From positions 768,001 to 832,000 of the forward strand of contig CAUVXB020000002.1 in NCBI GenBank assembly GCA_963555825.3: a stretch of DNA of 64,000 nt, read 5' to 3'. The DNA comes from Alphaproteobacteria bacterium. Its GTDB lineage: Bacteria; Pseudomonadota; Alphaproteobacteria; JAAXGF01. The notes beneath the pieces were generated by a model, which worked only from the letters and a program-made list of their open reading frames with translations, had not been told where the DNA came from and searched no databases. The first letter of the stretch is position 1; each line of letters opens with the position of its first letter. Shown here in pieces: positions 671 to 14,909 of the stretch. The position numbers were made by a program, and so were the translations under genes.

Positions 671-2281
671 TTATGGTGCGATTGCCGCGCAGCGTCGGAT
701 ATTGAGGCCGAGGGCACGCAGATTGACCACGTAGCGCATGGCCGGCATGCCGCGAATGCGTAGGTGAGCCAGGTTCATCTGGTACTTTAATCGCGACATG
801 GTCGCTTCTATGCCGGCCCGCCATCTGTAGACGTCGCGGAAGGCATCGCTTTGTTCATAAAGCCGGCGCTTTTGGTTGGCAGCCCTGGCCGGGGTATATT
901 GAAAGCGGGAAAATTGGCCGTCACGCTTGGCCGCCTGCACGGGACATCGCAGTATATCGGGACATTTTTGGCAGATGGAAAGGTCGAAACGGGCCTGCAG
1001 CTTGGCTTTGGCGAGCGAGGCTGAAACCGGTTCGACGTTATTGGGACAGCGCAAGACCAAGCCTTCTTCGTTGAGAGTGAAATCCTCCAACGTCAACCGT
1101 CCCGAGACGGCGCCTTTCGGCGGTCGCGCGGGCGCCACGAGATTGATGTTCTGTTCGCGCGTCAGAGCCATGTTGTCACTGGAACCGTAATGTGAATCAC
1201 CCAGCATCACCGCCGGCGTCAGCGCGCGCTCGCTCAGATCATCCAGCGCATCGGCCAAGCGATGGCCGTCATGCACCGTCATCTTGTGGACCTCCACGTG
1301 GGTGATGAGGTCCGGTGTCGCGGCAACCGCCTCGTTACTGACATCTTCACAATAGGTTTCGACGATCTGCGCCATGTATCCTTGACCCTTGTGCGCGTTG
1401 TAGCTCGCGTCCGGGTCGGCCGGATTGCCGACGGTATCGCACGGCACATCCTTTGGATCTCGAATCGCGGCGCGCGTTGCGTCACGATCGCCATACTCAT
1501 CATCAACGATCTCGAACTGATCGCGCAGAACCCTCTCCAGGATCGCAAAACTGAAAAGCTTTGCCGCCGCCGTGTCACGGAATTGCAGCACCAGGGCTAG
1601 GAGATACTGACCCGCTTCGCCGAGGCGCCGTTTTGAAACACTCGGCGCCGTATTCGCGAACGCGCCATTACCCTCGCGATCGACATAGCGGCGGATCACC
1701 TCCTTGCTGATCTGCTCGTGCAGACCGGGATGATATCGCTCAAGCTCACGGGCAAACTTCGAGATGCTCTCAACAACGATACCAAGTCGTGTCAGCGCCC
1801 GCATTGCCGAACGAAGGGCCGTCGAATCCATGCGTTGGTGGCTGGTATCGACAGAGAACCCCTGCACCAGCCGATCCGTCAAACACCGGAACAGCAATTC
1901 ATCGAGACCTTGTTCGATAAACAGACGGCGATAGTTGCGCAGGGTTTTCTCACAGAAATAGCTGTCCGCTTCGCTGCGCACGTCCAAGGCATAGTGCCAC
2001 GCCATATTGAAGGCCAGGGCCTCGACGGTCTCTGCATCGCTCAGATCGTGCAGCTGCTGCAAAAGCAAGACCCCGATGACAACGTGTAGATCCTTCGATG
2101 GTCGGCCCATGCGTTCATCAAGGTGACGGCAAAGATCGTCAACCGGAAGTTCGACAAGCAGATGGTTCCGAAAAACCCCGGCCCAGGATTGCTCCATCAG
2201 GCGCCGACGTTTGTCCCCGAAATCGGACCAGCGATCAAACAATTCCCCAGTCCGTCGGTCGCGTAAAGTAAACATGCACAA
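671..2281 (-). CDS. IS1182/IS5-like DDE transposase
   Basis: GRPSKD..LLLQQLHDLSD, MDST, DPDASY, GDSHYG, Cys motifs (CP..CQKC..C), and YRWRAGIEATMSRLK; putative element end CTTGACGGGGCGGTAAAAAG near 2333. Confidence 0.8.
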   Translation of the reverse strand: MCMFTLRDRRTGELFDRWSDFGDKRRRLMEQSWAGVFRNHLLVELPVDDLCRHLDERMGRPSKDLHVVIGVLLLQQLHDLSDAETVEALAFNMAWHYALDVRSEADSYFCEKTLRNYRRLFIEQGLDELLFRCLTDRLVQGFSVDTSHQRMDSTALRSAMRALTRLGIVVESISKFARELERYHPGLHEQISKEVIRRYVDREGNGAFANTAPSVSKRRLGEAGQYLLALVLQFRDTAAAKLFSFAILERVLRDQFEIVDDEYGDRDATRAAIRDPKDVPCDTVGNPADPDASYNAHKGQGYMAQIVETYCEDVSNEAVAATPDLITHVEVHKMTVHDGHRLADALDDLSERALTPAVMLGDSHYGSSDNMALTREQNINLVAPARPPKGAVSGRLTLEDFTLNEEGLVLRCPNNVEPVSASLAKAKLQARFDLSICQKCPDILRCPVQAAKRDGQFSRFQYTPARAANQKRRLYEQSDAFRDVYRWRAGIEATMSRLKYQMNLAHLRIRGMPAMRYVVNLRALGLNIRRCAAIAP

Positions 2282-2333
2282 TTATAATCCAGCCGACTCT
2301 CATGAGGAATCGACTTTTTACCGCCCCGTCAAG

Positions 2334-3036
2334 ATTCGGTTATAGCTCCCAGGAACGCCCGATATGCCCCTACGATACATTCACACCCGAGCAGCGGATC
2401 GTATTCGTCACTGACTATCAGGAAGGCCCCTATCTGCTGGACCCGTTTTATCAGGTATATGCGGACCGGTTAGAGGCCGGCTTGTATCGGCTGCGCGAGA
2501 TCGCGCCGGACCGGTTCTATCACTCGGAGTATTTTCGATCATACTATCGCCGCACCGGACTGGCCGAAGAGATCGGCTTCCTGGTGTCCCCGCCCCACGA
2601 CATGATGCTGGTGATATCCCTGATGCGGGCCGGCACCAGCACGCCGTTCAGTGACCGAGACATGAACAAACTGCGTCGTATGGAACCGATCGTTCATGCC
2701 TCGGCGGCGCGACATTGGCGAAATCTGGGACATCCCCAGTCCCGCGAGACAGAGGCGGAAACGGCCCGACCACGGCTGAACCTTCAAGTCACCAGCGCTT
2801 TCGAGAATTTCGGCGACGGCGTTCTGACAAGCCGTGAACGCGAGGTGGTGCGCATGGTATTGCGCGGTCATTCATCCAATTCCATCGGACGCCAATTTCA
2901 AATCACCACCGGGACGGTCAAGATTCATCGCAAGAACATCTACGCGAAACTCGGGATTTCCTCCCAGTCCGAGCTATTTTCCCACTTCATCTCCTTCCTG
3001 TCGGGCATTGTGGAACCGGGCGAAGTTGGTCGGTAA
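2334..3036 (+). pseudogene. LuxR-family regulator, 5'-truncated by the upstream IS
   Basis: C-terminal LuxR HTH (LTSREREVV..GTVKIHRKNIYAKLGISSQSELF); the first codons of the listed ORF lie within the IS end, so the native N-terminus appears missing. Confidence 0.7.
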
Positions 3037-3749: not shown

Positions 3750-3800
3750 TGGTAGCGGAGGAGGGACTCGAACCCCGACACGCGGATTATGATTCCGCTG
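3750..3800 (-). repeat. att direct repeat: displaced 3' part of tRNA-Met
   Basis: Identical to 13633-13684 except one missing C (C4 versus C5). Confidence 0.95.
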
Positions 3801-3843
3801 TCGAAGCTTTGCATCTGCTTTCTAGCAATTGCCGGAAATTTCG

Positions 3844-3856
3844 TAATCTATTGATA
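3844..3856 (-). promoter_or_regulatory. Putative IHF site near the left att (similar site at 13616-13628)
   Basis: TATCAATAGATTA matches the WATCAANNNNTTR consensus; the right-hand site TTTCAATGACTTA has one mismatch. Confidence 0.5.
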
Positions 3857-3925
3857 AACCGTATGTAAAGTCGTTCTCCAGTTTGCGTTTGCTTTCCGGT
3901 CAATGCGCCAATATCCTGTCTCTGT

Positions 3926-3945
3926 GGTGACATCCTGGTGACACG
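3926..3945 (+). repeat. Putative integrase arm-type site (tandem GGTGACA), left copy
   Basis: GGTGACATCCTGGTGACACG is 19/20 identical to 13567-13586 and abuts the integrase RBS. Confidence 0.75.
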
Positions 3946-3956
3946 GAGGCAAAATC

Positions 3957-5150
3957 ATGCTCACCGAGCGCATCATACGGGACGCCAAATCCAAAGGCAA
4001 GGCGAGGACGATCTGGGACGGCGAGGTCAAGGGCCTCGGGCTCCAGATCACCCAGGGCGGCAAGAAGAACTACGTCATCCGCTACATGGTCTGCGGTCGG
4101 AAGCGCCAGGCGATCCTCGCCCGTGCCGGCGAGACATCACTACGGGACATCCGAAAGCGGGCCGGCGAGGAAATGGTGCGAATTCGTTCCGGCGAGACCG
4201 ACCCTCTGACGCGCCGGGACGCAGCGAGGCAGGCGCCGACCGTGGCGGAAGGGGTACAACGGTTCTTCGAGGAATATTGCCCGCGCCGGATTGCTAACGG
4301 ACGCTTGAGCGCGCGGACCGAAACGGACTACCGGAAACAGGCGAACCTCACGATCCTGCCGGCCCTCGGGAAGCGCAAGATCGCGGACGTAACGCGCGCG
4401 GACATCGAGCGGGCCGTCGCCCCGCGCGGACCAGTGCAGCGAAACCGGACGCTCGCCCTTATTTCTCGGATGTTCAATCTGTTCGAGGATTGGGAGTGGC
4501 GAGCGCAGAACACAAATCCGGCAAAGCGAATCGAGAAGGCACGCGAGGAACCGCGCGACCGCGTTCTAGAGCCTTCCGAGCTGGCCGCGTTGGCGAGGGC
4601 ACTGACTGGCATTGAAGACAAGTACCCTGCCCCTGTTGCCGCGATCCGCGTTGCCGCCGTCACCGGCTTGCGCATTGGCGAGGTTCGGACAATCCGCTGG
4701 GAGGACGTCAGTTTCGAGACCGGTCGCCTCACAATGCCGAAGACAAAGAGCGGGCGGCGGGTTCATGACCTGCCCGCGGCGGCGCTGGAAATCCTAGCCG
4801 CCCTACCCCGCATAAACGATTGGGCCTTCACGACGGGGCGGGATGCTCCGACTACCTATCGCTATTGCCACATCGTGTTTACGGAGGCCGCGCGCGCGGC
4901 GCGCTTAGAGGACGTGCGGTTACACGACCTCAGGCGCACCGTGATGACCAGTGCTGCGGCCGCGGGCGTCGGGACTCATGTGCTCCGGGACCTGTTGGGC
5001 CACAAGACGACGGCGATGGCCGATCGTTACGTCCGCGCCGTCGGGAACCCCGTCCGCGATGCTCGCGAACAAGTAGGCGCGGCCATGGCCGCCATGATGG
5101 AGGGCAAGGGCGGAGAGGTCATTTCCATGGAGCGACACCGTGGCAAGTAA
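3957..5150 (+). CDS. int: Tyrosine integrase with N-terminal arm-binding domain
   Basis: Catalytic motifs GLRIGE, KTK, HDLRR, LLGH and DRY; GGAGG RBS. Confidence 0.95.
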   Translation: MLTERIIRDAKSKGKARTIWDGEVKGLGLQITQGGKKNYVIRYMVCGRKRQAILARAGETSLRDIRKRAGEEMVRIRSGETDPLTRRDAARQAPTVAEGVQRFFEEYCPRRIANGRLSARTETDYRKQANLTILPALGKRKIADVTRADIERAVAPRGPVQRNRTLALISRMFNLFEDWEWRAQNTNPAKRIEKAREEPRDRVLEPSELAALARALTGIEDKYPAPVAAIRVAAVTGLRIGEVRTIRWEDVSFETGRLTMPKTKSGRRVHDLPAAALEILAALPRINDWAFTTGRDAPTTYRYCHIVFTEAARAARLEDVRLHDLRRTVMTSAAAAGVGTHVLRDLLGHKTTAMADRYVRAVGNPVRDAREQVGAAMAAMMEGKGGEVISMERHRGK

Positions 5151-5490
5151 GAAACCACCGCTTGGGAGCCCCGCCGACTTGGTGGAGATATTCCGTACCT
5201 TCCTGCACGAACGCCTCGAATGGGACCTCACCCTAGATCCGCGGCTGATGTTCCGGATTCTGGAGCTTGCCGAGTTGGGATTGGATCACCCGAAAGCTCT
5301 AGAGCGCACCAAACAAGCGCAGGACCGACGTCTAGAACAAAAGGTGCGGACCCTGGCAAAGCGATACAGGACTTCGGAAACCAAGGTTCGCAAGCGGTTG
5401 CGGCGCGTAAGCAAAAATGCTGGCTATCGCTCTGACGACGCGCTCCGCAAGCGCATAGATCGGATTCGGCGGCCCTGGTTATCAGAATAG
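5140..5490 (+). CDS. Hypothetical basic protein, possible DNA-binding regulator
   Basis: Overlaps the integrase stop; K/R-rich C-terminus; followed by GGACAGAAT/GGACTGAAT/ATTTGTCC repeats at 5494-5518. Confidence 0.6.
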   Translation: MASKKPPLGSPADLVEIFRTFLHERLEWDLTLDPRLMFRILELAELGLDHPKALERTKQAQDRRLEQKVRTLAKRYRTSETKVRKRLRRVSKNAGYRSDDALRKRIDRIRRPWLSE

Positions 5491-5578
5491 CCAGGACAGA
5501 ATCGGACTGAATTTGTCCGTTCTAAAGCGCGGATAAGTCGCGCAAGGTGACGGCTCCACAAACACAGGAGTTGCCACC

Positions 5579-5773
5579 GTGTTCGACCCCACCAAGCTCT
5601 ATTTTGCGAACGATCCGGCGCTGAAGGCGCTCGGACCCTACTCGACCCTCGCGCACTGGCGTTCGGAAGGGCGTGGCCCGGCCTATATCAAGATCGGCTC
5701 GCGCGTTGCCTATTCAGGCAAGGCGTTGAACGACTGGTTGGCCGCCCGCACCGTCGAACCACAAGCCGCATAG
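5579..5773 (+). CDS. AlpA/excisionase-like HTH protein
   Basis: STLAHWRSEGRGPAYIKIGSRVAY motif; AGGAG RBS before a GTG start. Confidence 0.9.
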   Translation: MFDPTKLYFANDPALKALGPYSTLAHWRSEGRGPAYIKIGSRVAYSGKALNDWLAARTVEPQAA

Positions 5774-5833
5774 AGAAACCCGCCGGGCGACGACTACCGG
5801 CGGGCTTCATGGTGTTCCAACAGCGACGACGTT

Positions 5834-5903
5834 GGGGGCGGGATGGTTCCGAGGACGCTCTCTAAAAGCACGCCTTGCGGGTTCAATTCCCGCCGCCTCC
5901 ACC
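5834..5903 (+). ncRNA. tRNA/tmRNA-like RNA: Ala-type acceptor stem, canonical T-arm, CUCUAAA loop
   Basis: GGGGGCG (5834-40) pairs with CGCCTCC (5894-5900) with a G3.U70 wobble, then A-C-C; T-arm GCGGG-TTCAATT-CCCGC; hairpin GCT-CTCTAAA-AGC. Confidence 0.65.
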
Positions 5904-5922
5904 CCAGCCGATGGTGGCTTGA

Positions 5923-7575
5923 ATGGGCGAAATACTTATAGCACCCAGCTTCGCGGACTGGCAAGGGAAAGCCGCCGCGCTGGAATTGAGGCGCCAAGGG
6001 CGCGAACTGGTTGGTTCCTGCCCTTCGTGTGGCGGCACAGATCGCTTCGCGGTCAAACCGGTCCAGGGCGGCGCGGCGCTGATCCATTGCCGTCAGTGCA
6101 AGGGCTTCGTCGACATCTTGAAGGCCGCCGGGCTCGCCGAGGATCGCCCGACGAACGGGGCGGCACCGACCCGCGAATTCGAGTATCGCGACCTGAGCGG
6201 CAAGCACTACCACAGCGCTTTTCGCCAAGGCGACGGGCCGGGCAAGAAATGTTGGCAGCGGCCCGGCTTCAAGGGGCGCCCGCTCCCCTATCGGATCGAA
6301 CACCATGCGGATTTCGGAGACCACCCCATCGTGATCGCCGAGGGCGAGCCCAAGGCCGACCGGCTCGCGCGTCTCGGATACGCCGCCGTGGCATGGTGTG
6401 GCGGCGCGGAGGCAGTACTGCGCACCCGCTGGGACGCGCTGGGCGGCTCCGACGTGATCCTGTGGCCGGATGCCGACAAGCCGGGCATGAAGGCCATGGA
6501 GCAGCTTTCCGGCGTGCTGGAGGGGCTCGGATGCGCCGTCCGATGGGTGGCCGTGCCGGACGGCAAGCCCAAGGGCTGGGACTGCATGGACGCATCCGAG
6601 GCGGACATTCACCGGCTGATCGAGGGCGCCGGAGATTTCGTCGTCTCCCTAGGGGCGGGACGAGACGACGAAACCTTTGTGCCGTCCATGCGCGAGTATC
6701 TCGACATGGACCTGACCCCCCCCGAATTCTTGGTTGAAGGGCTGTTCACGGCGGCGGGATTGAACGCGGTCGGCGCCAAGCCGGACGCCGGCAAGACCAC
6801 GTTCGAGCGCACGCTTGCGATGGCCGTGGCGCGGGGCGAGACGTTCCTGGGGCGCCGGACGAAGCAAGGGCCGGTTTTCCTGGGGCTGTTCGAGGAAGAC
6901 CCGTCTTTCACCCGGGATTTCCTCGTGAAGCTCGGCGCGACCGCGGACGACCCGATCTATCCGTTCATCCAGCCGGCGCCGGAAGACATGTTCGACAAGC
7001 TGGCCGCATGGATCGAAACCCACCGCCCCGCGCTGGTGATACTCGACACGATGGCGAAGGCCATGCCAGGTGTCGACCTGAACGACTATTCCGAGGTGAA
7101 TCGGGCAATCACGCCATACGCCACGCTTGCCCGCACCACGCGGACCTGCATCTTGTTCGCTCACCACAACCGGAAGGGCGAAGGTGGCGACACCGGGGAG
7201 GAATTGCTCGGCTCCACCGCGATTCGGGGCAACATCGACACCACCCTCATCATCCGCACGGAAGGCGACCGCCGCGTCGTGGAGACGACGCAACGCTATG
7301 GCGCCAACATGCCGGAGACCTATCTAGACATCGACGAGGCCACGGGCCGCGTCCAAGCCGCCGGAGAGAAGCGGGAAACCCGACGATCCGACATGCGCGA
7401 GAACATCCTCTACATCGTCGGGGAGGCGGGCGAGCCGATGAAGAAATCGGACATCGAGGACAAGGTGAAGGGGAGCGGCAAGGCGATCCGCGCCATGTGC
7501 GACCAGCTTGCCGAGGAAGGCGCGCTCACATCATGGAAACAGGGCAATGCGATCATGTATGCTCTACCGAATTGA
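5923..7575 (+). CDS. Primase-helicase (P4-type Zn finger, TOPRIM, RepA/AAA_25-like helicase)
   Basis: CPSCGGTDRF..CRQC; AEGE..AD and WPDADKPG; Walker A AKPDAGKT; LVILDT; HHNRK; LLGSTA. Confidence 0.9.
   Translation: MGEILIAPSFADWQGKAAALELRRQGRELVGSCPSCGGTDRFAVKPVQGGAALIHCRQCKGFVDILKAAGLAEDRPTNGAAPTREFEYRDLSGKHYHSAFRQGDGPGKKCWQRPGFKGRPLPYRIEHHADFGDHPIVIAEGEPKADRLARLGYAAVAWCGGAEAVLRTRWDALGGSDVILWPDADKPGMKAMEQLSGVLEGLGCAVRWVAVPDGKPKGWDCMDASEADIHRLIEGAGDFVVSLGAGRDDETFVPSMREYLDMDLTPPEFLVEGLFTAAGLNAVGAKPDAGKTTFERTLAMAVARGETFLGRRTKQGPVFLGLFEEDPSFTRDFLVKLGATADDPIYPFIQPAPEDMFDKLAAWIETHRPALVILDTMAKAMPGVDLNDYSEVNRAITPYATLARTTRTCILFAHHNRKGEGGDTGEELLGSTAIRGNIDTTLIIRTEGDRRVVETTQRYGANMPETYLDIDEATGRVQAAGEKRETRRSDMRENILYIVGEAGEPMKKSDIEDKVKGSGKAIRAMCDQLAEEGALTSWKQGNAIMYALPN
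6636..6673. repeat. 12-bp-arm palindrome, copy 1 (inside the primase-helicase linker)
   Basis: TTTCGTCGTCTC-N14-GAGACGACGAAA. Confidence 0.9.
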
Positions 7576-7612
7576 TTTCGTCGTCTCGTCTCCTCTTAGG
7601 GAGACGACGAAA
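7576..7612. repeat. 12-bp-arm palindrome, copy 2 (right after the primase stop); putative replication origin element
   Basis: TTTCGTCGTCTC-N13-GAGACGACGAAA, same arms as copy 1. Confidence 0.85.
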
Positions 7613-7676
7613 CGGCACCGGCAGGATGGCCCGCCCTGCCGTCACCTTTGGCAAGCTCACTCTGAAAGAGGAACAC

Positions 7677-7958
7677 ATGACGGATACCGGAGCATTTCAC
7701 TATTTTGACCCCCGCGACACGAACCCGCCGCCCGTGCCTATCAACCTGGACGTGGCCACAACCAGACGCCTCTACCAGATCGCTGAGTGGTACGCCCGCA
7801 TCCTCAAGGCGAACGGCCACGAGCCGCCAGCCGACCCGCTGCGCTGCTTGATCGACGCGGGGGAGTCGCTGATTGCTGCCGTCCAATCGCGTGACAAGCT
7901 GTTGCGCGAGCATGGCATCGACCCTGACAAGATAAGCACTTGGACGACACTGCATTGA
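7677..7958 (+). CDS. Hypothetical protein (93 aa)
   Basis: GAGGA RBS then ATG 7677; C-terminal part of listed ORF 7008-7958. Confidence 0.6.
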   Translation: MTDTGAFHYFDPRDTNPPPVPINLDVATTRRLYQIAEWYARILKANGHEPPADPLRCLIDAGESLIAAVQSRDKLLREHGIDPDKISTWTTLH

Positions 7959-8090
7959 GGAGCTCAAAGGTACTGTGACCGCCTCGATCCTGCGTGGTCT
8001 GGGGGGGTTATCGCATGTTCTCACGTTTTTTGTGTCGGCCTGAACTGCGGTATTGACATACCGTGCTATTAGACCAATTCTAAACTGGCA

Positions 8091-9317
8091 ATGTTTGGGT
8101 TCCTGAACCGCCTTCGCGGCCCCGAGACGCGCTCCGCCGAGATCGATCTGGGCGCGTTGTACGCCTCGTTCTTCCAGTCCGGCGGCGGGGCCTTCAGTTT
8201 TTCGCAATCGCCCGCGATCTTGGTTTCCAGCTTGGGCGTGCTGGACAACGCCGGGGCACTCTTGACCCAGAGTCGACGCCTGGGGCGGCAGAGCCCGCTG
8301 CTGATCGCCTACCGCGCCGTGATCGAGTCCGGAGTGCTGACCGGCGAGCCGGAGGCCCCGGAGTACGACGACGCCGTTCCCGAGGCCGTCGTCGAGGCCG
8401 TCGCCGACTTGTGGACCGACGCGCATGACCCCGACCGCGAGCGCGACCTACTCGACCGCCTGGTCGTGGACGGCGAATTCTTGGAGCTGGACGACGGGAC
8501 GATAGTTCCGCCCGATGGTTTCGAGCCGATCATGGCGGGGCCGAAGTGGAACCGCGAGGTAGTCGGATACAAGATCGGCACGGGCTCACGCGCTCGCGCG
8601 GCGGGCCTGCGGTATGTCGGAGATCGCCCCATGGGCGCGAGCCGCGCCTTGCCGTGGATCGCCCCGGCGCTCCCCCCGGCGGCTGGCCTTCTCAATGCCC
8701 GCACCGGCGCCGCGCACGCCCTCGGCACCATGGCAAAAATCGCCTCTGTCATCTCGAACGCGAGCCCCGACCGGATCACCGCGTCGGCTGGCGTGCGTTC
8801 GGGCCTCGTGGACCAAGCCGGGACGGCGGAAGCGGAGCGCCAGCCGATCCACTCGGCGAACGTCGGATCGGTCCCGTACCTGCGAATCGGCGAGGAAGTG
8901 AAGCGCATCCAGACCGGCCCGGACGAGACGGCCCGCAAGTACGAGGCGCAGCTTGAAAAGGACGTATCTGCCGCGTTGAACATGCCCTTGAGCGAATTGC
9001 TATCCGACTACTCTACGGGCTCCTTTTCGAATCTCCGCATGGCATGGCAGGACGCCGAGCGCGAAATCGCCCGCCGCCGCCGATGGTGGCACCGCCGCTA
9101 CCGCTTGCCCCTGTATCTCGAAATCCTTTCCGACGCCTTCGCGGCGGGCCGACTCCCGCGCATGAACATGCAGACGATGGCGCAGATCAAGAAACCCGCA
9201 TGGCGCGGGCCTAAGCGGCTTCCGCCGCAACCCGAGAAGGAAGCGCAATCCCTGGCGCTCCTCGCCCGCGAGGGCATCATCACCGCCGCTGACGCGCGGG
9301 ATCAACTGGAGACCTAG
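8091..9317 (+). CDS. Phage portal protein, lambda gpB-like
   Basis: SDYSTGSFSNLRMAW and WRGPKRLPPQPEKEAQ..GIIT resemble lambda-family portal motifs; first gene of the head cluster. Confidence 0.75.
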   Translation: MFGFLNRLRGPETRSAEIDLGALYASFFQSGGGAFSFSQSPAILVSSLGVLDNAGALLTQSRRLGRQSPLLIAYRAVIESGVLTGEPEAPEYDDAVPEAVVEAVADLWTDAHDPDRERDLLDRLVVDGEFLELDDGTIVPPDGFEPIMAGPKWNREVVGYKIGTGSRARAAGLRYVGDRPMGASRALPWIAPALPPAAGLLNARTGAAHALGTMAKIASVISNASPDRITASAGVRSGLVDQAGTAEAERQPIHSANVGSVPYLRIGEEVKRIQTGPDETARKYEAQLEKDVSAALNMPLSELLSDYSTGSFSNLRMAWQDAEREIARRRRWWHRRYRLPLYLEILSDAFAAGRLPRMNMQTMAQIKKPAWRGPKRLPPQPEKEAQSLALLAREGIITAADARDQLET

Positions 9318-9321
9318 ACCC

Positions 9322-10569
9322 ATGAATAAATCCGTACAACTCGCCATCCGGGCGTCGGAAATCCGTTCGGAGATCAATGGCCTGGAGCCGGGCGACGCCA
9401 CCCTTGCGAAGCGCCGCGAGCTTCTGGACAGCCTCAACACCGTGGAGAGCGAATACCGGGCGGCACTCACGAGCGAGGCCGAGGCCGAGGTGGGTGCTGC
9501 CGACGTTCACGGCCTCACCGGCGCCGAGCGCGAGTTCCGCGAGCTGACGACGAAGGCCGAGCTTCGAATGGCGTTCCGGGCCGTCATGAACGGCGACCCG
9601 CTGACTGGAGCCGAGAAGGAGTTGCAGGAACATCGAGGTCTGTCTGGCCACTCCGTCCCATGGGATATGATCGGCCCGCGCCCCGCGCCCCGGACTGAGG
9701 ATCGCGCGGACGCCGTATCTTCCGCGCCCGCCGACAGTCACCTGCAACAACATCCGATCCTAAGCCGCGTGTTCGCCCGGAGCGCGACCGCGACCTTGGG
9801 GGTTGCAATGCCGCAGGTTCCAAGCGGCGAGCAAAATTATCCGGTTGTCACGACCACCGACTCCGCCGTGATCCTGGTGAAGGACGCCGCCGAGGGCGAC
9901 GCCGCGGACGCCGGTATCACTGCTCACGTCATCGAGCCGAAGCGGCTACAGCGGTCCTATCTGTTCCGCCGCGAGGATCAAGCAGTCCTGGGCGGCCTGG
10001 AGGAAGCCTTGCGGGCCGACCTGTCCATGTCGGTTTCCGATCTGCTCGACGCGCAAGTCCTGGCGGGCGACGGCACCACCGGAGCGCAATTCGCCGGCTT
10101 CCTGGCGACCGCCGCGAATGGCGGCTTGACCGACCGGAGCGACAGCCCGGCCCGCGTCACGTTCGCCCTGGCGGCGGCTGAGGCGGCGCGGGGCATCGAC
10201 GGCAAGTATGCCGGCGGCCTCGGCGAGTGTGCCGTCGTCATCGGAGACGACACCGCCCGCGATCTTGCGAGCAAGTTCCAGACCAACGACTCCGATTCGG
10301 CCTTGGCGTACATGGGCCGCACCACCATGAAGACGATGGCGTCCGCAAACGTCCCCGCCGCGGCTTCGATGTTCCAAGAGGGCATCGTCGGCCGCATGGG
10401 TGCTGCTGGTGCAAACGCCGTTTGTCCGGTCTGGGATTCAATGTTCATGATCCGGGACGAAATCTCTGGTCGGAAGTCCGGACAGATCGGTCTCACCATC
10501 GGCATGTTGGCCGGGTTCGACATTCTGCGCGCCGGTGGCTTCGACCGCCTCAAGTTCAAGGTCGCATAA
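9322..10569 (+). CDS. Major capsid protein (HK97 fold, N-terminal helical scaffold region)
   Basis: Helical N-terminus; motif DLLDAQVLAGDGT..GFL; C-terminal FDILRAGGFDRLKF; 415 aa. Confidence 0.8.
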   Translation: MNKSVQLAIRASEIRSEINGLEPGDATLAKRRELLDSLNTVESEYRAALTSEAEAEVGAADVHGLTGAEREFRELTTKAELRMAFRAVMNGDPLTGAEKELQEHRGLSGHSVPWDMIGPRPAPRTEDRADAVSSAPADSHLQQHPILSRVFARSATATLGVAMPQVPSGEQNYPVVTTTDSAVILVKDAAEGDAADAGITAHVIEPKRLQRSYLFRREDQAVLGGLEEALRADLSMSVSDLLDAQVLAGDGTTGAQFAGFLATAANGGLTDRSDSPARVTFALAAAEAARGIDGKYAGGLGECAVVIGDDTARDLASKFQTNDSDSALAYMGRTTMKTMASANVPAAASMFQEGIVGRMGAAGANAVCPVWDSMFMIRDEISGRKSGQIGLTIGMLAGFDILRAGGFDRLKFKVA

Positions 10570-10571
10570 CC

Positions 10572-11075
10572 GTGGCCTTGGAGTACCGCTACGCGACCTT
10601 GGAAGTCCGCGCCGCCGATGGCGGGCTGATCGAGGGCATCGTCATGCCCTACACGCGCGAGGCGAATATCGCCGGAGCGTTCCGCGAGTCCGTGGACGCC
10701 GGAGCGTTCGGGCAGATCAACGACGTCATCCTCAACTTGATGCACGACCACCGCGAACCGCTGGCCCGGACGGAAGGCGGCGGCCTCACCCTGGAAGACG
10801 GGGCCGACCGCTTGTTCCTGCGCGCCGACATTCCCGAGTATCGAGGCGACGTGCGGGACCAAGTGAAGCGGCGAATCCTTAGAGGTTTCAGTGTCGAGAT
10901 GGAGGTGAAGGCCGAAGACTGGCCGACCCCGGACCGCCGCGTCATTCGGGCCGCGACCCTGTGGAATATCGGCCTTGTCGATCGACCGGCCTACAGCGAA
11001 GCGACCGCCGCGATCGCCAAGCGGGCGAAGGAAGCGTGTCGAGTGGTGCCGCGCTTGTGGCCCCTGACCGTATGA
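10572..11075 (+). CDS. HK97-family prohead protease
   Basis: FRESVDAGAF, MHDHREPLART, GFSVE and IGLVDRPAY; GTG start just after the capsid stop. Confidence 0.9.
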   Translation: MALEYRYATLEVRAADGGLIEGIVMPYTREANIAGAFRESVDAGAFGQINDVILNLMHDHREPLARTEGGGLTLEDGADRLFLRADIPEYRGDVRDQVKRRILRGFSVEMEVKAEDWPTPDRRVIRAATLWNIGLVDRPAYSEATAAIAKRAKEACRVVPRLWPLTV

Positions 11076-12892
11076 GCGCGAGCGCCCTCCGCCGCTGGTC
11101 TCTCCGCAATCTCGTGGTCGCGGACGGACCCCGCGCCGGGCGCCCGTTCCGCATCGCGTCGGCACCGTGGGGCGACGTGCTCGACGCCATGGACGATCCC
11201 GAGCTTGAACAAGTCACGATCCGGGGCAGCGTCCAGTCCGGCAAGACCGCCGCGCTGATCGCCGCTGCCCTGGGGCACATGGCCGCCGGTCGATCCGTGC
11301 TGATCTTCGAGCCCGACGACAAGCTGAAACGCGCCCTTGCAACCCGCATCCTCGCCTGGGGCCGCCTGTGCAAGGACGAAGCCATCCGGGAAGCCTACGA
11401 TCCGAAGCGGCCACCCTTCGCACGCTCTACGGACGCGGGCGGGCGCTGTGAAATCCTCTCCGCACGCGAGGGCGGGGCGGGCGTCATGCGGACGGCGGAG
11501 ATCGTCATCGTGGACGAACTTCGCTTGTTCCACATTGACCTGCTCGGCGACCTGATCGACCGCATGGCGGCCTACGGCGGCAAGGGCCGACTGATAACCG
11601 CGTCCAGCGCCGGATATCAAGACGAGTGCAAGACTACGCACGAGCTTGAGAAATCCGATTCCCGGCGCTGGTTTCTCCGCTGCCACCAGTGCGGCCAAGA
11701 GAACGTCGCGGACTGGAGGAACGTGAACTACAAGGCGCGACGGTATCCGTTCTACGTCATGCCGTGCTGCGGATCGACGCTTGAGGGCGTCCCTTTCCGC
11801 CGTGCCATGCAGGCGGGGCGCTGGAAGGCGACGAAGGACGAGATGGTCCCTGGCACGGCAGGGTTCCACCTGGACGCTTTCCTTTCGCCCTTCGAGTCCT
11901 TGCGAACCATCGTGCGCCAGTGGAAGCGGGCCGACGCGCACCGGAAGCAAACCGGCAGCATGGCCGAAACCATATCGTTCCAGACCGGGCGGCTGGCGCT
12001 GCCCTACAAGCCCGAGGCCGCGCAAGGCGTGACCCCGGAAGCCCTGCGCACGTCGTGCCGCGAAGATTACGACCCCTCCACCGTGCCGGCGGCGGCCGGC
12101 GTGCTGATCGGGGCCTGCGACGTGCAAGACGATCGCTTAGAGGCGGAAATCTCCGCCTGGGGCCTCGTGGAAGTAGCGCGCGACGACGCATCGCAACTGA
12201 AGGGATGGGGCAGTCACGAATTCCGGGGCCTCCAACACGGCGGGCGCTGGTATCGGCTTCGCCGTTGGGCGTTGGAATATCGCCGCTTCCATGGCGACCC
12301 GGGAACGCCAGAGTTGTGGGAACAACTGGCGGAGTTCATGGAGCGCCCGCGACCGCACGCCACCGGCCCGATGTTGCGCCCCGTCGCGGTCGGAATCGAC
12401 ACCGGCGGCCACTACGGCCCGCAAGTTGCCGATTTCTGCAAGGTGCGGGGCCGTGGATATCAGCCGCTAAAGGGACTTCCCCCACAGAGATACGGCGCGG
12501 TCCTGGCGCGCCGATCCGTGACCGCCGACAGTCTGGAAAGCTACGGCCCCGAGGGCCTGATGCTGGTATGCGGGAACGCTGGAAAGGCGTCATGCTTTAG
12601 CCTCATGCGGCAGTCAATCGCGGGCGTCGAGCCTAAGCCGATGGTCTGGCCGATGGACGAGTCCAAGTATGGGCCGGAGGAATTCGAGGGCATCGTTTCC
12701 GAAACCCTTATGCGGACCCTCGACAAGCGCACCGGCGCGACCCGCTTGATGTGGCGGAAGATCGCCCGCGCAAACGAACCGCTCGACGTGCTGGTCTACA
12801 GCCTCGCGCTTGTCTCTCACCTGGGCCTGGGTTTCATGCTCGCCGAGGCCGACGCCATCGCCAGCGCCGCCGGACGGAAGGAAGCCGCATGA
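11072..12892 (+). CDS. Terminase large subunit, lambda GpA family
   Basis: SVQSGKT, IVIVDE, RRWFLRCHQCG, DVQDDRLE, IDTGGH and NEPLDVLVY; ATGA-coupled to the protease. Confidence 0.9.
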   Translation: MSASALRRWSLRNLVVADGPRAGRPFRIASAPWGDVLDAMDDPELEQVTIRGSVQSGKTAALIAAALGHMAAGRSVLIFEPDDKLKRALATRILAWGRLCKDEAIREAYDPKRPPFARSTDAGGRCEILSAREGGAGVMRTAEIVIVDELRLFHIDLLGDLIDRMAAYGGKGRLITASSAGYQDECKTTHELEKSDSRRWFLRCHQCGQENVADWRNVNYKARRYPFYVMPCCGSTLEGVPFRRAMQAGRWKATKDEMVPGTAGFHLDAFLSPFESLRTIVRQWKRADAHRKQTGSMAETISFQTGRLALPYKPEAAQGVTPEALRTSCREDYDPSTVPAAAGVLIGACDVQDDRLEAEISAWGLVEVARDDASQLKGWGSHEFRGLQHGGRWYRLRRWALEYRRFHGDPGTPELWEQLAEFMERPRPHATGPMLRPVAVGIDTGGHYGPQVADFCKVRGRGYQPLKGLPPQRYGAVLARRSVTADSLESYGPEGLMLVCGNAGKASCFSLMRQSIAGVEPKPMVWPMDESKYGPEEFEGIVSETLMRTLDKRTGATRLMWRKIARANEPLDVLVYSLALVSHLGLGFMLAEADAIASAAGRKEAA

Positions 12893-13545
12893 GCCGCACA
12901 CCGACAGACGTGATCGAAGTCGAGTTCGGAGAGGACACCCGCTACTCACCGCCCACCGGCGCCGAACGCTGGAGCGCCTTTAGTCGGACCGACATCCTGT
13001 CCGCGCTGAATGATGAGCCCAGGGGAAACCCGCTTATCACGCACGGCGGCCACCCTCCGCAATGGGCGATCATCGGCGGCTGGAACGTCACCGCCGACGC
13101 CTTCATTCCACCACCCTCGACGGCGGGACAGCCCCGCGCGAACGTGACCGGCTTCGAGGACGCCGCCAGCGCGGCGGGCTTCGCCATCGAGTGGGACACC
13201 CTTGCGGCGGCCTCCGCGACCGGCCTCCGCGAGATGTTGCTGGTCCTTGCCTACGAGGGCGGCAAGGCGGTCAAGCGCACGATATTCAGAACGCCTGCGT
13301 CATCGGCAATCGACCCCACCGTGATCGCGGCGCAAGAACGGCTGTTGCTGCAATCCCTGCTCCGCACCCGCGACCAGCGGGCGGGCTCGGGCGGCATCAT
13401 CAAGCACGACCACGGCGAAGGCTCGGGCGAGGAATTCGAGAGCTTGGCCGTCCTGGATCGCCGGATCGCGGAGTGCCGCGCCCGGATCGCGTGGTTCGAG
13501 CAAGCGGCGGAGGGCAACGACCTGCCCCGCCTGGAGACGTGGTAG
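12889..13545 (+). CDS. Hypothetical protein with gpW-like (head completion) C-terminus
   Basis: ATGA-coupled to the terminase; EEFESLAVLDRRIAECRARIA resembles the gpW C-terminal helix. Confidence 0.55.
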   Translation: MSRTPTDVIEVEFGEDTRYSPPTGAERWSAFSRTDILSALNDEPRGNPLITHGGHPPQWAIIGGWNVTADAFIPPPSTAGQPRANVTGFEDAASAAGFAIEWDTLAAASATGLREMLLVLAYEGGKAVKRTIFRTPASSAIDPTVIAAQERLLLQSLLRTRDQRAGSGGIIKHDHGEGSGEEFESLAVLDRRIAECRARIAWFEQAAEGNDLPRLETW

Positions 13546-13566
13546 GCGGGGCAGTGCCGGGCGGGC

Positions 13567-13605
13567 GGTGACATCATGGTGACACGCTCCTATTCCCGTG
13601 TCACC
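13567..13605. repeat. Putative integrase arm-type sites, right copy
   Basis: GGTGACATCATGGTGACACG plus an inverted CGTGTCACC at 13597-13605. Confidence 0.75.
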
Positions 13606-13632
13606 GAATTCCATCTAAGTCATTGAAAACGT

Positions 13633-13709
13633 TGGTAGCGGAGGAGGGACTCGAACCCCCGACACGCGGATTATGATTCCGCTGCTCTAACCAGCTGAGC
13701 TACTCCGCC
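13633..13709 (-). tRNA. tRNA-Met (CAT), elongator type
   Basis: 77-nt cloverleaf GGCGGAG...CTCCGCT-ACCA; anticodon arm GCGGA-ATCATAA-TCCGC; encoded CCA. Confidence 0.95.
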
Positions 13710-13787: not shown

Positions 13788-14909
13788 TCAGGCGGCAAGC
13801 CGAGCCTCGGGCCGCTCGATCCAGCCGCCGCCGAGCACGCGTGGCCCCTGGTAGACGACGCAGGCCTGGCCGGGCGCGATGGCGGCCTGCGGTGCGACCA
13901 AATCGACCGCGGCGCGGTCGCCGCCCAAGTCCCTGACGGTGGCCGCGACGGCGGCCTGGTTGGCGCGCAGCTTGACGTCGACGTCGAGGCCCTCGGCCGG
14001 CAAGGCGCCGGCGGCCAGCCAGTTGACGCCCGAGACCGTCAGCGTCTGGCCCATCAACGCATCGCGCGGGCCGACCACGACGCGCCGCTCGGCGGGCTCG
14101 AGGCGCAGGACGAACAGCGGCTCGTGCCACGAAACGCCCAGGCCGCGCCGCTGGCCGACGGTGAAATCGACGATGCCATCGTGGCGGCCGAGCACACGGC
14201 CGTCGATATGGACGATGTCGCCCGGCGCGCCGGCCTCGGGGCGCAGGCGCCGGATGACGTCGGCGTAGGAGCCGCGCGGCACGAAACAGATGTCCTGGCT
14301 GTCCGGCTTGTCGGCGACGGCGAGACCGAAGCGGGCGGCATGCGCGCGGGTCTCGGTCTTGGCCATGCCGCCAAGCGGAAAACGCAGCATCGCGAGCTGG
14401 TCGCGCGTCGTGGCGAACAGGAAATAGCTCTGGTCGCGGTCGGCGTCGATGGCGCGGTGCAGCTCGGGGCCGTGCGCGCCGATCTCGCGGCGCACGTAAT
14501 GGCCGGTCGCCAGCGCGTCGGCGCCGAGGTCGCGCGCGGTGCCCAGGAGATCGTGGAACTTGACCGTCTGGTTGCAGCGCACGCAGGGGATCGGCGTCTC
14601 GCCGCGCAGATAGCTGTCGGCGAAATCGTCGATCACCGCCGCCTTGAAGCGGCTCTCGTAGTCGAGCACGTAATGGGCGATGCCGAGCCGGTCGGCGACA
14701 CGGCGCGCGTCGTGGATGTCGCGGCCGGCGCAGCAGGCGCCCTTGCGGCCGGTCGCCGCGCCGTGGTCGTAGAGCTGCAGCGTCACGCCGACGACCTCGA
14801 AGCCGCCTTCCGCCATGAGCGCCGCGGTGACCGACGAATCGACGCCGCCCGACATCGCGACGACGACGCGGGTTTCGGCGGCCGGCTTATCGATGCCCAA
14901 TTCGTTCAT
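13788..14909 (-). CDS. mnmA: tRNA 2-thiouridylase MnmA
   Basis: [43 protein letters not shown] and PGQACV. Confidence 0.97.

What the first reader, a model, noticed from the sequence alone, without database searches (positions are those of the whole stretch)
5834..5906. tRNA/tmRNA-like RNA with alanine identity and an amber (CUA) loop inside the satellite
Seen: a 7-bp acceptor stem GGGGGCG/CGCCUCC with G3.U70 and discriminator A, a perfect T-arm (GCGGG-UUCAAUU-CCCGC), a short D region (GGAUGGUUCCGA), and an interrupted arm GAGG-AC-GCU-[CUCUAAA]-AGC-ACG-CCUU. The 3' end reads ACCCCA, so CCA would need maturation. Known: G3.U70 is the AlaRS identity element; tmRNA's tRNA-like domain has a similar stem-less D loop (N4-GG-N4-GA); CUA reads UAG; satellite P4 places its processed CI immunity RNA between its excisionase gene and its primase gene, the same position as here. 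Inference, three options: an Ala-inserting amber suppressor, a tmRNA mimic lacking the tag reading frame (decoy for SmpB, AlaRS or anticodon nucleases), or an RNase P-processed immunity RNA. Four of the ten element genes end in TAG.
Basis: partly seen in the sequence, partly recalled or inferred. Interest (0 to 1): 0.82.

Follow-up and report, generated by a model that had tools for sequence, protein, structure and literature searches.

The report
Tag-less mini-tmRNA in a phage satellite
A small mobile island in an alphaproteobacterium carries a 68-base RNA gene that keeps only the alanine-accepting, tRNA-like end of the bacterial ribosome-rescue RNA (tmRNA); this kind of RNA is already known from phages, and this copy is a divergent one in an unusual carrier.

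Summary
The sequence described is there, at 5834-5901 (trailer to 5906). It has a perfect 7-bp acceptor stem with G3:U70 and discriminator A, a stem-less 12-nt D-loop with GG and CGA, a canonical T arm, and an irregular hairpin between them.

It is the best match in the host's 6-Mb genome to a model of phage tag-less tmRNAs. It scores 44.4 bits; the host tRNA-Ala genes score 24.5-32.4.

That family is the published 'TLD only' tmRNA of mycobacteriophage DS6A (PMC4131195, PMC11915505). It is common in viral contigs and shows strong covariation and near-invariant alanine identity. This scan has met the family before on other DNA, but not in a satellite.

The window copy is a low-scoring outlier. 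Only the acceptor, D-loop and T arm align, and it falls below Rfam's tmRNA cut-off.

It lies between alpA and primase in a 9.9-kb island integrated in tRNA-Met. The island has portal, capsid and terminase genes.

Sister copies keep the RNA unchanged. One variant differs only in two loop bases, which removes the 'CUA'.

Most likely it is a tmRNA mimic that competes for SmpB and AlaRS. The amber-suppressor and P4-CI-like readings are not supported. Expression is only hinted at.

The parts
5834..5901 (+). Tag-less tmRNA-like RNA: acceptor 5' strand to discriminator A
   Evidence: R1 family model 44.4 bits, positions 1-78 of 78. Rfam tmRNA positions 1-374 of 374, 33.5-42.1 bits.
5834..5840 (+). 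Acceptor stem, 5' strand (GGGGGCG), G3 of the G3:U70 pair
   Evidence: Identical to the 5' acceptor strand of the host's own two-piece tmRNA.
5841..5852 (+). Stem-less D-loop GGAUGGUUCCGA (GG at positions 12-13, CGA at 17-19)
   Evidence: Aligns to the family D-loop in R1. The family's near-invariant U16 is C here.
5853..5876 (+). Irregular middle hairpin (G53-C74, G54-C73, inner stem 5857-5859/5867-5869, loop CUCUAAA 5860-5866) and a 2-3 nt spacer, in place of helix P2 and the mRNA-like domain
   Evidence: Fold energies. Not alignable to the family P2 helix. Loop bases 5862 and 5863 differ in a sister copy.
5877..5893 (+). T arm GCGGG-UUCAAUU-CCCGC
5894..5900 (+). Acceptor stem, 3' strand (CGCCUCC), U70
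   Evidence: Identical to the host tmRNA acceptor 3' strand.
5902..5906 (+). 3' trailer CCCCA; CCA is not encoded exactly
   Evidence: CCA is encoded in only 26 of 98 family members.
5780..5805 (+). G+C-rich hairpin just after the alpA stop codon, without a U tract
   Evidence: A variant contig in X15 shows changes on both strands (G5782C with C5801G) that keep the pairing (table 7). Not called as a + strand terminator.
5579..5773 (+). Small HTH protein (AlpA/excisionase-like), upstream neighbour
   Evidence: Pfam HTH_17, E 1e-4, below the curated cut-off.
5923..7575 (+). Primase-helicase, starts 17 nt after the RNA trailer
   Evidence: Pfam AAA_25, Zn_Ribbon_Prim, Toprim. PHROG 239 DNA primase/helicase.
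3957..5150 (+). Tyrosine integrase of the island
   Evidence: Pfam Phage_integrase, Arm-DNA-bind_3.
3750..3800 (.). Left att repeat (copy of the 3' part of tRNA-Met)
   Evidence: Direct repeat families D1 and D2, 100% identical to 13633-13684.
13633..13709 (-). tRNA-Met(CAU); its 3' 52 nt form the right att repeat
   Evidence: ARAGORN, Rfam tRNA 65.1 bits, repeats.
8091..12892 (+). Head and packaging genes of the island: portal 8091-9317, capsid-like 9322-10569, large terminase 10961-12892
   Evidence: Pfam and PHROGs. The capsid assignment is weak (Pfam E 0.002, below cut-off).

Best explanation
It is a divergent tag-less ('TLD-only') tmRNA: a gene for only the alanine-accepting, tRNA-like end of tmRNA. 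It is carried by a 9.9-kb satellite-like island integrated in tRNA-Met.

Inferred mechanism:
1. It is transcribed with the alpA-primase leader.
2. RNase P cuts the 5' end at G5834. The 3' end is trimmed and completed by the CCA-adding enzyme.
3. AlaRS recognises it through G3:U70 and A73, and SmpB through the D-loop/T-loop elbow.
4. With no resume codon or tag frame, it competes with the host's two-piece tmRNA for SmpB, AlaRS, EF-Tu and stalled ribosomes. This damps rescue-and-tagging while the island or its helper phage is active.

Shown here: the sequence anatomy, the family relation, and conservation in sister copies. Inferred: processing, charging, SmpB binding and the effect on trans-translation.
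For: Anatomy: perfect acceptor stem with G3:U70 and A73, stem-less GG...CGA D-loop, canonical T arm.

Model scores:
- Rfam tmRNA aligns end to end, and the overlapping clan (tRNA-type) matches scored lower and were dropped.
- Family model R1, built without this sequence, gives 44.4 bits. That is the best hit in the 6-Mb genome, against 32.4, 28.1 and 24.5 bits for the host tRNA-Ala genes.

The family is real and of the published DS6A type:
- DS6A 28478-28557 scores 61.2 bits on R1.
- 12 of 19 modelled pairs show double-sided changes.
- 13 of 15 tested loci pass Rfam's tmRNA cut-off.
- With a pattern that leaves the acceptor free, 97 of 98 have G3:U70 and 98 of 98 have A73.

Precedent: passages read in PMC4131195 and PMC11915505 say the DS6A-like molecule strongly inhibits tmRNA in E. 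coli, perhaps by titrating SmpB.

Host partners: SmpB and a two-piece tmRNA with the same acceptor stem are present.

Conservation:
- 0 differences across 5777-6035 against sister element L011. The 277 bases just upstream (5500-5776, alpA and the spacer before it) carry 119 of the 325 differences counted over 5500-7700.
- A third lineage differs only at two loop bases.
- Contigs from two metatranscriptome libraries cover the RNA (X19 5774-5917, X18 5648-5891).
Against: - It is below Rfam's tmRNA gathering score (33.5-42.1 against 47), and host tRNA-Ala genes score similarly on that model.
- On R1 it lies below 93 of 94 hits in a second, unseeded set of 99 viral loci, 91 of which score 54 bits or more.
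- The family's covarying P2 helix and GAC spacer are not recognisable, and the near-invariant U16 is C.
- CCA is not encoded, and no promoter-like site was found.
- The zero-difference block extends about 110 nt into the primase gene with no synonymous change. Recent recombination could therefore explain the identity as well as selection could.
- RNA-library contigs do not prove transcription; the tool itself says so.
- No covariation could be measured for this subtype. Only identical or near-identical copies were found.
Confidence: 0.45

Rival explanations
1. A tRNA-like processing signal that acts in cis. The structure serves only as an RNase P (and 3' nuclease) cleavage site. It separates the alpA message from the primase message and sets their ends, with no trans-acting role.
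For: - It sits inside a co-oriented gene string, 60 nt after the alpA stop and 17 nt before the primase start. It is preceded by a conserved hairpin that could protect the alpA 3' end.
- No promoter of its own was found.
- Family members in phages also lie tightly between co-oriented genes, for example terminase and portal, or protease and capsid.
Against: - Processing needs only a tRNA-like shape. It does not explain retention of G3:U70, A73 and the tmRNA-type D-loop, which are near-invariant in the family.
- An acceptor stem identical to the host tmRNA's is not needed for cleavage.
- The two roles are not mutually exclusive.
Confidence: 0.2
2. An evolutionary relic. The two ends of a captured one-piece tmRNA gene were left behind after the middle was deleted. 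They are now neutral and persist only because the block was exchanged recently between islands.
For: - Low score against the family, with an unalignable middle.
- The identity block covers flanking non-RNA sequence too.
- The 27-nt T-arm/acceptor end is identical to a stretch at the very end of a Halomonas phage record, the kind of sequence mobile elements carry as attachment sites.
- Islands often capture tmRNA gene ends (PMC4131195, passage read).
Against: - All 12 stem pairs of the acceptor and T arm are intact, and the D-loop GG and T-loop are canonical.
- The one divergent copy seen changes only apical loop bases, while the neighbouring hairpin changes by a compensatory pair.
- An attachment-site relic would hold the 3' half only, not a matching 5' half.
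Confidence: 0.15
3. A decoding RNA: an alanine-charged tRNA without a D arm, whose 7-nt loop CUCUAAA presents anticodon CUA and suppresses UAG.
For: - The loop has U at position 2 and A at positions 6-7, as anticodon loops do.
- ARAGORN in metazoan-mitochondrial mode draws a D-loop tRNA with anticodon cta at 5833-5904.
- 4 of about 10 island genes end in TAG.
Against: - The mitochondrial-mode call also appears for 30 of 200 shuffles of the 36-nt middle and for 6 of 91 family members.
- Standard ARAGORN, with and without lowered thresholds, finds nothing.
- The stem under the loop has 3 pairs followed by a 2x3 internal loop.
- A sister copy reads CUGCAAA, so CUA is not conserved.
- Read-through of the four TAG genes adds 3 to 55 residues with no recognisable product.
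Confidence: 0.04
4. A P4-CI-like immunity or antisense RNA, processed by RNase P and acting by base pairing on island or helper transcripts.
For: Only position: it lies between the excisionase-like gene and the primase gene.
Against: - No C4/CI-type or other antisense family appears in Rfam even at E 10.
- No complement of the 13-nt hairpin top (2 mismatches or fewer) or its 11-nt core (1 mismatch or fewer) occurs anywhere in the island.
- The loop itself varies between copies.
- Helper-phage targets could not be searched, because the helper is unknown.
Confidence: 0.05

Closest known systems
'TLD only' (CDS-less) tmRNA of Mycobacterium phage DS6A (Hudson, Lau and Williams 2014, PMC4131195; Nawrocki, Petrov and Williams 2025, PMC11915505; both cite Mao et al. 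2009, which I did not read)
   Same: - About 70-80 nt, with an acceptor stem carrying G3:U70 and A73.
- Stem-less D-loop with GG...CGA, canonical T arm, no tag reading frame.
- Carried by a mobile element and lying between co-oriented genes.
- Missed by ARAGORN and unannotated in the record.
   Different: - The window RNA lacks the family's 6-7 bp covarying P2 helix, the inner tetraloop hairpin and the GAC spacer.
- It scores 44.4 bits against 61.2 for DS6A on R1.
- It sits in a chromosomal satellite-like island rather than a phage.
- Its host's own tmRNA is the two-piece form.
tRNA-like domain of canonical tmRNA (Rfam RF00023; host two-piece form RF04321)
   Same: - Acceptor stem identical to the host tmRNA's (GGGGGCG/CGCCUCC).
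- Alanine identity elements.
- D-loop without a stem (features as listed in PMC3968760, passages read).
   Different: - No mRNA-like domain, pseudoknots or tag frame.
- One piece, whereas the host's is permuted.
- Canonical T-loop UUCAAUU, whereas the host tmRNA has GGCAGUA.
- Below the Rfam cut-off.
tRNA-Ala
   Same: G1-C72, G2-C71, G3:U70, A73 and the T arm. The host tRNA-Ala genes score in the same range on the Rfam tmRNA model.
   Different: - No D stem, no regular anticodon arm, no variable region.
- Not called by ARAGORN.
- The host tRNA-Ala acceptor stems differ (GGGGCCG, GGGGGUG) and those genes encode CCA.
CDS-less ~65-bp tmRNAs of Mallomonadaceae plastids (PMC11915505, passage read)
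   Same: tmRNA reduced to the tRNA-like domain alone.
   Different: An organelle's own gene, not a mobile-element cargo. The sequences were not compared here.
Phage P4 CI immunity RNA (C4 family)
   Same: A small processed RNA.
   Different: No Rfam match and no antisense target. CI RNA is not tRNA-shaped with alanine identity (recalled).

Membership tests
TLD-only (tag-less) tmRNA, DS6A type | 7-bp acceptor stem with G3:U70 and discriminator A73 | tested here: met
   In the family, 97 of 98 have G3:U70 and 98 of 98 have A73 when the acceptor is left free.
TLD-only (tag-less) tmRNA, DS6A type | Canonical T arm (5 bp, 7-nt loop UUCRANU) | tested here: met
   5877-5893.
TLD-only (tag-less) tmRNA, DS6A type | Stem-less 12-nt D-loop with GG and a UCGAC-type end | tested here: inconclusive
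   GG and CGA are present and in register. The near-invariant U16 is C, and the base after CGA is G. CGAG is rare: 3 of 91 unique members and 5 loci in all of IMG/VR.
TLD-only (tag-less) tmRNA, DS6A type | Covarying 6-7 bp P2 helix closed by a GAC-type spacer before the T arm | tested here: not met
   R1 aligns one closing pair only and skips 19 nt; the spacer is CUU. The best local fold is 2-4 pairs, an internal loop and 3 pairs.
TLD-only (tag-less) tmRNA, DS6A type | No tag reading frame or mRNA-like domain | tested here: met
   68 nt in all. Rfam's 310 middle positions are replaced by 20 nt.
TLD-only (tag-less) tmRNA, DS6A type | Score within the family's range on a family model | tested here: inconclusive
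   44.4 bits. This is above all host tRNAs (32.4 or less), but below 93 of 94 hits in an unseeded set of 99 loci and below DS6A at 61.2.
TLD-only (tag-less) tmRNA, DS6A type | Alanylation by AlaRS, SmpB binding, inhibition of tmRNA tagging | not testable with these tools
   Needs biochemistry and reporter assays. The host does encode SmpB.
Canonical tmRNA (RF00023 / RF04321) | Rfam gathering score, plus an mRNA-like domain with resume codon and tag frame | tested here: not met
   33.5-42.1 bits against 47. ARAGORN finds no tmRNA. There is no room for a frame.
Suppressor tRNA (tRNA-Ala with anticodon CUA) | Cloverleaf with D arm and 5-bp anticodon stem, and a conserved anticodon | tested here: not met
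   No ARAGORN call in bacterial mode. The mitochondrial-mode call is matched by 30 of 200 shuffles. The loop differs in a sister copy.
P4 CI / C4 antisense RNA | Rfam C4 match and complementary target sites in the element | tested here: not met
   No such hit at E 10. No complementary site in 3750-13684.
Capsid-forming phage satellite (cf-PICI-like island), as context | Integrase, AlpA, primase and head/packaging genes; no tail or lysis genes; att repeats; dependence on a helper phage | tested here: inconclusive
   Gene content and 51-nt att repeats are met. Several ORFs have no match, and helper dependence is not testable here.

The most novel reading that the evidence does not exclude
The RNA is not a passive decoy. 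It is an alanine-charged, D-arm-less decoder whose apical loop is a swappable anticodon (CUA in this island, GCA in a sister copy). The satellite would then recode UAG, or in the sister copy cysteine codons, to alanine in the host or helper phage while it is active.
Probability: 0.04. Interest if true: 0.85.

Novelty: new variant of a known kind. Interest (0 to 1): 0.42.

Why it matters
Tag-less tmRNA mimics are in print from one phage (DS6A) and two plastids, yet they are common in phage DNA and go unannotated. ARAGORN made no call on 118 of 120 viral loci examined.

This copy extends the kind in two ways:
- The carrier is a small chromosomal satellite-like island, not a phage.
- The host uses a two-piece tmRNA.

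If it is functional, interference with ribosome rescue would also be a tool of phage parasites. It would also give a compact, testable RNA (68 nt, 12 perfect stem pairs, irregular middle) for asking which parts of the tRNA-like domain are needed to engage SmpB and AlaRS.

If it is only a relic or a processing site, the finding is ordinary.

Tried and rejected
**Searches for diverged relatives of this subtype**
- Primase-based locus search in genome contigs: 1 locus, L011.
- Primase-based search in viral contigs: none.
- The host's order: 0 of 12 other genomes.
- Subtype pattern in metagenome contigs: one unrelated ~97-nt mini-tmRNA, L134.
- CGAG-type pattern in viral contigs: 5 loci, none of this subtype.
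- blastn of 5777-5925 against named phages: only a 27-nt T-arm match.
- Result: no covariation test was possible for this subtype.

**Shared context with the viral family**
- tblastn of nine island proteins against 120 viral loci gave nothing at E 1e-3.
- Flanking ORFs of the viral copies are diverse. I scanned 76 of 151 with Pfam.

**Other tests that gave no support**
- The unconstrained fold z-score is not significant.
- No promoter-like site was found, and the only terminator-like site is on the minus strand.
- ARAGORN mitochondrial mode gave a tRNA(cta) drawing. I rejected it as evidence after controls.
- TAG read-through gave nothing meaningful.
- Antisense target search was empty.

**RNA-library contigs**
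They cover the RNA in two studies. They cannot show transcription, ends or strand, and parts without cover mean nothing.

**Literature**
Paper searches for a description of a broad phage family of such RNAs found only the DS6A and plastid mentions. Subscription-journal papers, including Mao et al. 2009, are not in the library, so I do not claim the family is unpublished.

Full report
**Observation.**
- The acceptor stem GGGGGCG (5834-5840) pairs with CGCCUCC (5894-5900), 7 pairs with G3:U70, and the discriminator is A5901.
- The T arm is perfect: GCGGG-UUCAAUU-CCCGC (5877-5893).
- The D region is 12 nt, GGAUGGUUCCGA (5841-5852).
- An interrupted hairpin has the apical loop CUCUAAA (5860-5866).
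- The trailer is CCCCA, so CCA is not encoded as such.

Standard ARAGORN finds no gene here, and Rfam at gathering thresholds finds nothing.

**What Rfam says.** At a permissive threshold, the tmRNA model RF00023 aligns from its first to its last position, with its 310 middle positions replaced by 20 nt. The score is 33.5 bits and 42.1 bits, against a cut-off of 47. Overlapping clan matches scored lower and were dropped. This alone is not specific: the host's tRNA-Ala genes score 36.2-45.4 bits on the same model.

**Host and carrier.**
- The host has a permuted two-piece tmRNA (RF04321, 144 bits; tag ANDNDKLALAA) and one smpB gene.
- The only close sister record is titled as an alphaproteobacterial MAG.
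- The host tmRNA's acceptor stem is identical to that of the window RNA. Its T-loop (GGCAGUA) and D-loop differ.
- The RNA lies in a 9.9-kb island bounded by 51-nt direct repeats (3750-3800 and 13633-13684). The repeats copy the 3' part of tRNA-Met, 13633-13709 on the minus strand.
- The island encodes a tyrosine integrase, a small HTH (AlpA-like) protein, a primase-helicase, a portal, a weak capsid match and a large terminase.
- No tail or lysis genes were recognised. It therefore looks like a capsid-forming phage satellite, but helper dependence is untested.

- These sequences share features the pattern did not force: UCGAC at the end of the D-loop, a helix after it, and GAC before the T arm.
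- In an alignment of 67 of the 91, 12 of 19 modelled pairs show double-sided changes, with 16-41 sequences per P2 pair.
- 13 of 15 loci tested pass Rfam's tmRNA cut-off at 54-77 bits. L025 and L042 do not.
- ARAGORN makes no call on 118 of 120. One lies inside a long tmRNA call and one inside an odd tRNA-Arg call.
- 35 of 120 have an ordinary tRNA gene within 1 kb.
- A second pattern left the acceptor free and gave 104 unique sequences. Of these, 98 have at least 6 of 7 acceptor pairs. Among the 98, 97 have G3:U70, all 98 have A73, and 26 encode CCA.
- The flanking genes are ordinary and diverse phage genes. I scanned 76 of 151 flank ORFs. None resembles the island's proteins.
- Cultured Streptomyces phages carry members with no feature annotated under the match in most rows.

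**It is the published kind.** Passages read in PMC4131195 list mycobacteriophage DS6A as 'TLD only'. They say a similar molecule strongly inhibits tmRNA, perhaps by titrating SmpB, citing Mao et al. 2009. PMC11915505 repeats this and adds ~65-bp CDS-less tmRNAs from two plastids. My model R1, built from the 67 viral sequences, finds DS6A's copy at 28478-28557 with 61.2 bits, in an unannotated gap between gp33 and gp34. Earlier reports of this scan reached the same reading on other DNA. None concerned a satellite.

**Is the window RNA a member?**
- R1 gives it 44.4 bits. That is the best hit in the whole 6-Mb genome (E 2.2e-7), and the only other hit is tRNA-Ala(CGC) at 32.4 bits.
- Unseeded members score 71.5, 67.5 and 53.1 bits.
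- In a second set of 99 loci, 94 hits range from 35.2 to 78 bits, and 91 are at 54 or more. The window RNA is therefore a low outlier.
- The alignment shows why. The acceptor, D-loop and T arm align, but the 19-nt middle does not, the spacer is CUU, and U16 is C.
- The general pattern occurs in 1 of 401 sampled genomes of the class, this one, with no hit for the reversed control.
- The tRNA-like fold costs 0.5 kcal/mol more than the minimum-energy fold. This is within the family's range (median 0; 18 of 91 at 3 or more).

**Conservation.**
- L011 is a sister island, about 86-90% identical in DNA.
- Over 5500-7700 there are 325 differences, but none between 5777 and 6035. The 277 bases just upstream (5500-5776) hold 119 of them.
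- The identical block starts right after the alpA stop codon. It covers the hairpin, the RNA and about 110 nt of the primase gene, so recent exchange can explain it as well as selection can.
- Twenty runs from nine studies hold the stretch. I laid four of them.
- DNA run X15 shows many variable sites in alpA and in the primase gene. Among the 41 best-supported rows shown (83 more were not shown), only 5862 C>G and 5863 U>C fall in the RNA, both in the apical loop. There is also an extra G in the G run at the RNA's 5' edge.
- The same variant contig carries a hairpin upstream with changes on both strands that keep the pairing (table 7).
- Contigs from two metatranscriptome libraries cover the RNA: X19 at 5774-5917 with no differences, and X18 at 5648-5891. 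The tool warns that this does not show transcription.

**Rivals.**
- Amber suppressor: weakened by the loop variant (CUA becomes GCA), the irregular stem, the absence of a standard tRNA call, and meaningless read-through products. The mitochondrial-mode ARAGORN drawing is matched by 30 of 200 middle-shuffles.
- P4-CI-like antisense RNA: has no Rfam match and no target in the island.
- A purely cis processing role, or a relic: these remain open. The intact stems and the alanine identity argue for more than either, but not decisively.

**Verdict.** The feature is real and is best read as a divergent, tag-less tmRNA mimic on a satellite-like island. This is a new variant of a known kind. Its function is inferred from the DS6A precedent and has not been shown.

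Noticed in passing
window 30303-30386 (-): ARAGORN calls an 84-nt tRNA-Thr(GGU) here, but Rfam shows no tRNA match even at E 1. The stretch is G+C-rich and looks like coding sequence, so this is probably a false positive.
   Followed up: partly
window 5780-5805 (+): A G+C-rich hairpin lies right after the alpA stop codon, without a U tract. A sister copy in run X15 changes both strands and keeps the pairing. It could protect the alpA 3' end or act as an attenuator before the RNA.
   Followed up: partly
window 5777-6035: A block with zero differences from sister island L011 starts exactly after the alpA stop codon and runs about 110 nt into the primase gene. The upstream flank is far more diverged (119 differences in 5500-5776), and differences in the primase gene resume past about 6200. 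This looks like a module boundary or recombination joint.
   Followed up: partly
window 671-3036: A DDE transposase (671-2281, minus strand) and a LuxR-type regulator (2302-3036) lie just left of the island's left att repeat.
   Followed up: no
window 13788-14909 (-): An MnmA-type tRNA 2-thiouridylase gene lies next to the tRNA-Met that serves as the island's integration site.
   Followed up: no
L134 66-162 (+): A metagenome contig carries a ~97-nt tag-less tmRNA with a longer inner arm and an encoded CCA (53.1 bits on R1). The family's middle part therefore varies in length.
   Followed up: partly
phage records H2-H8 (Streptomyces phages LuckySocke, GiJojo, pSt2308, Shaeky, BRock, Alone3): Cultured Streptomyces phages hold DS6A-type tag-less tmRNA genes. 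No RNA feature is annotated under the match in any of them.
   Followed up: no
Halomonas phage vB_HmeY_H4907 (OQ832096.1) 40379-40405: A 27-nt stretch identical to the window RNA's T arm and acceptor 3' strand (5877-5903) sits at the very end of this phage record, unannotated. It may be an attachment site derived from a tmRNA or tRNA gene end.
   Followed up: no
window 8091-9317 (+): The island's portal ORF matches only the C-terminal part of the lambda-family portal profile (positions 203-354 of 354). It may be a shortened or divergent portal.
   Followed up: no
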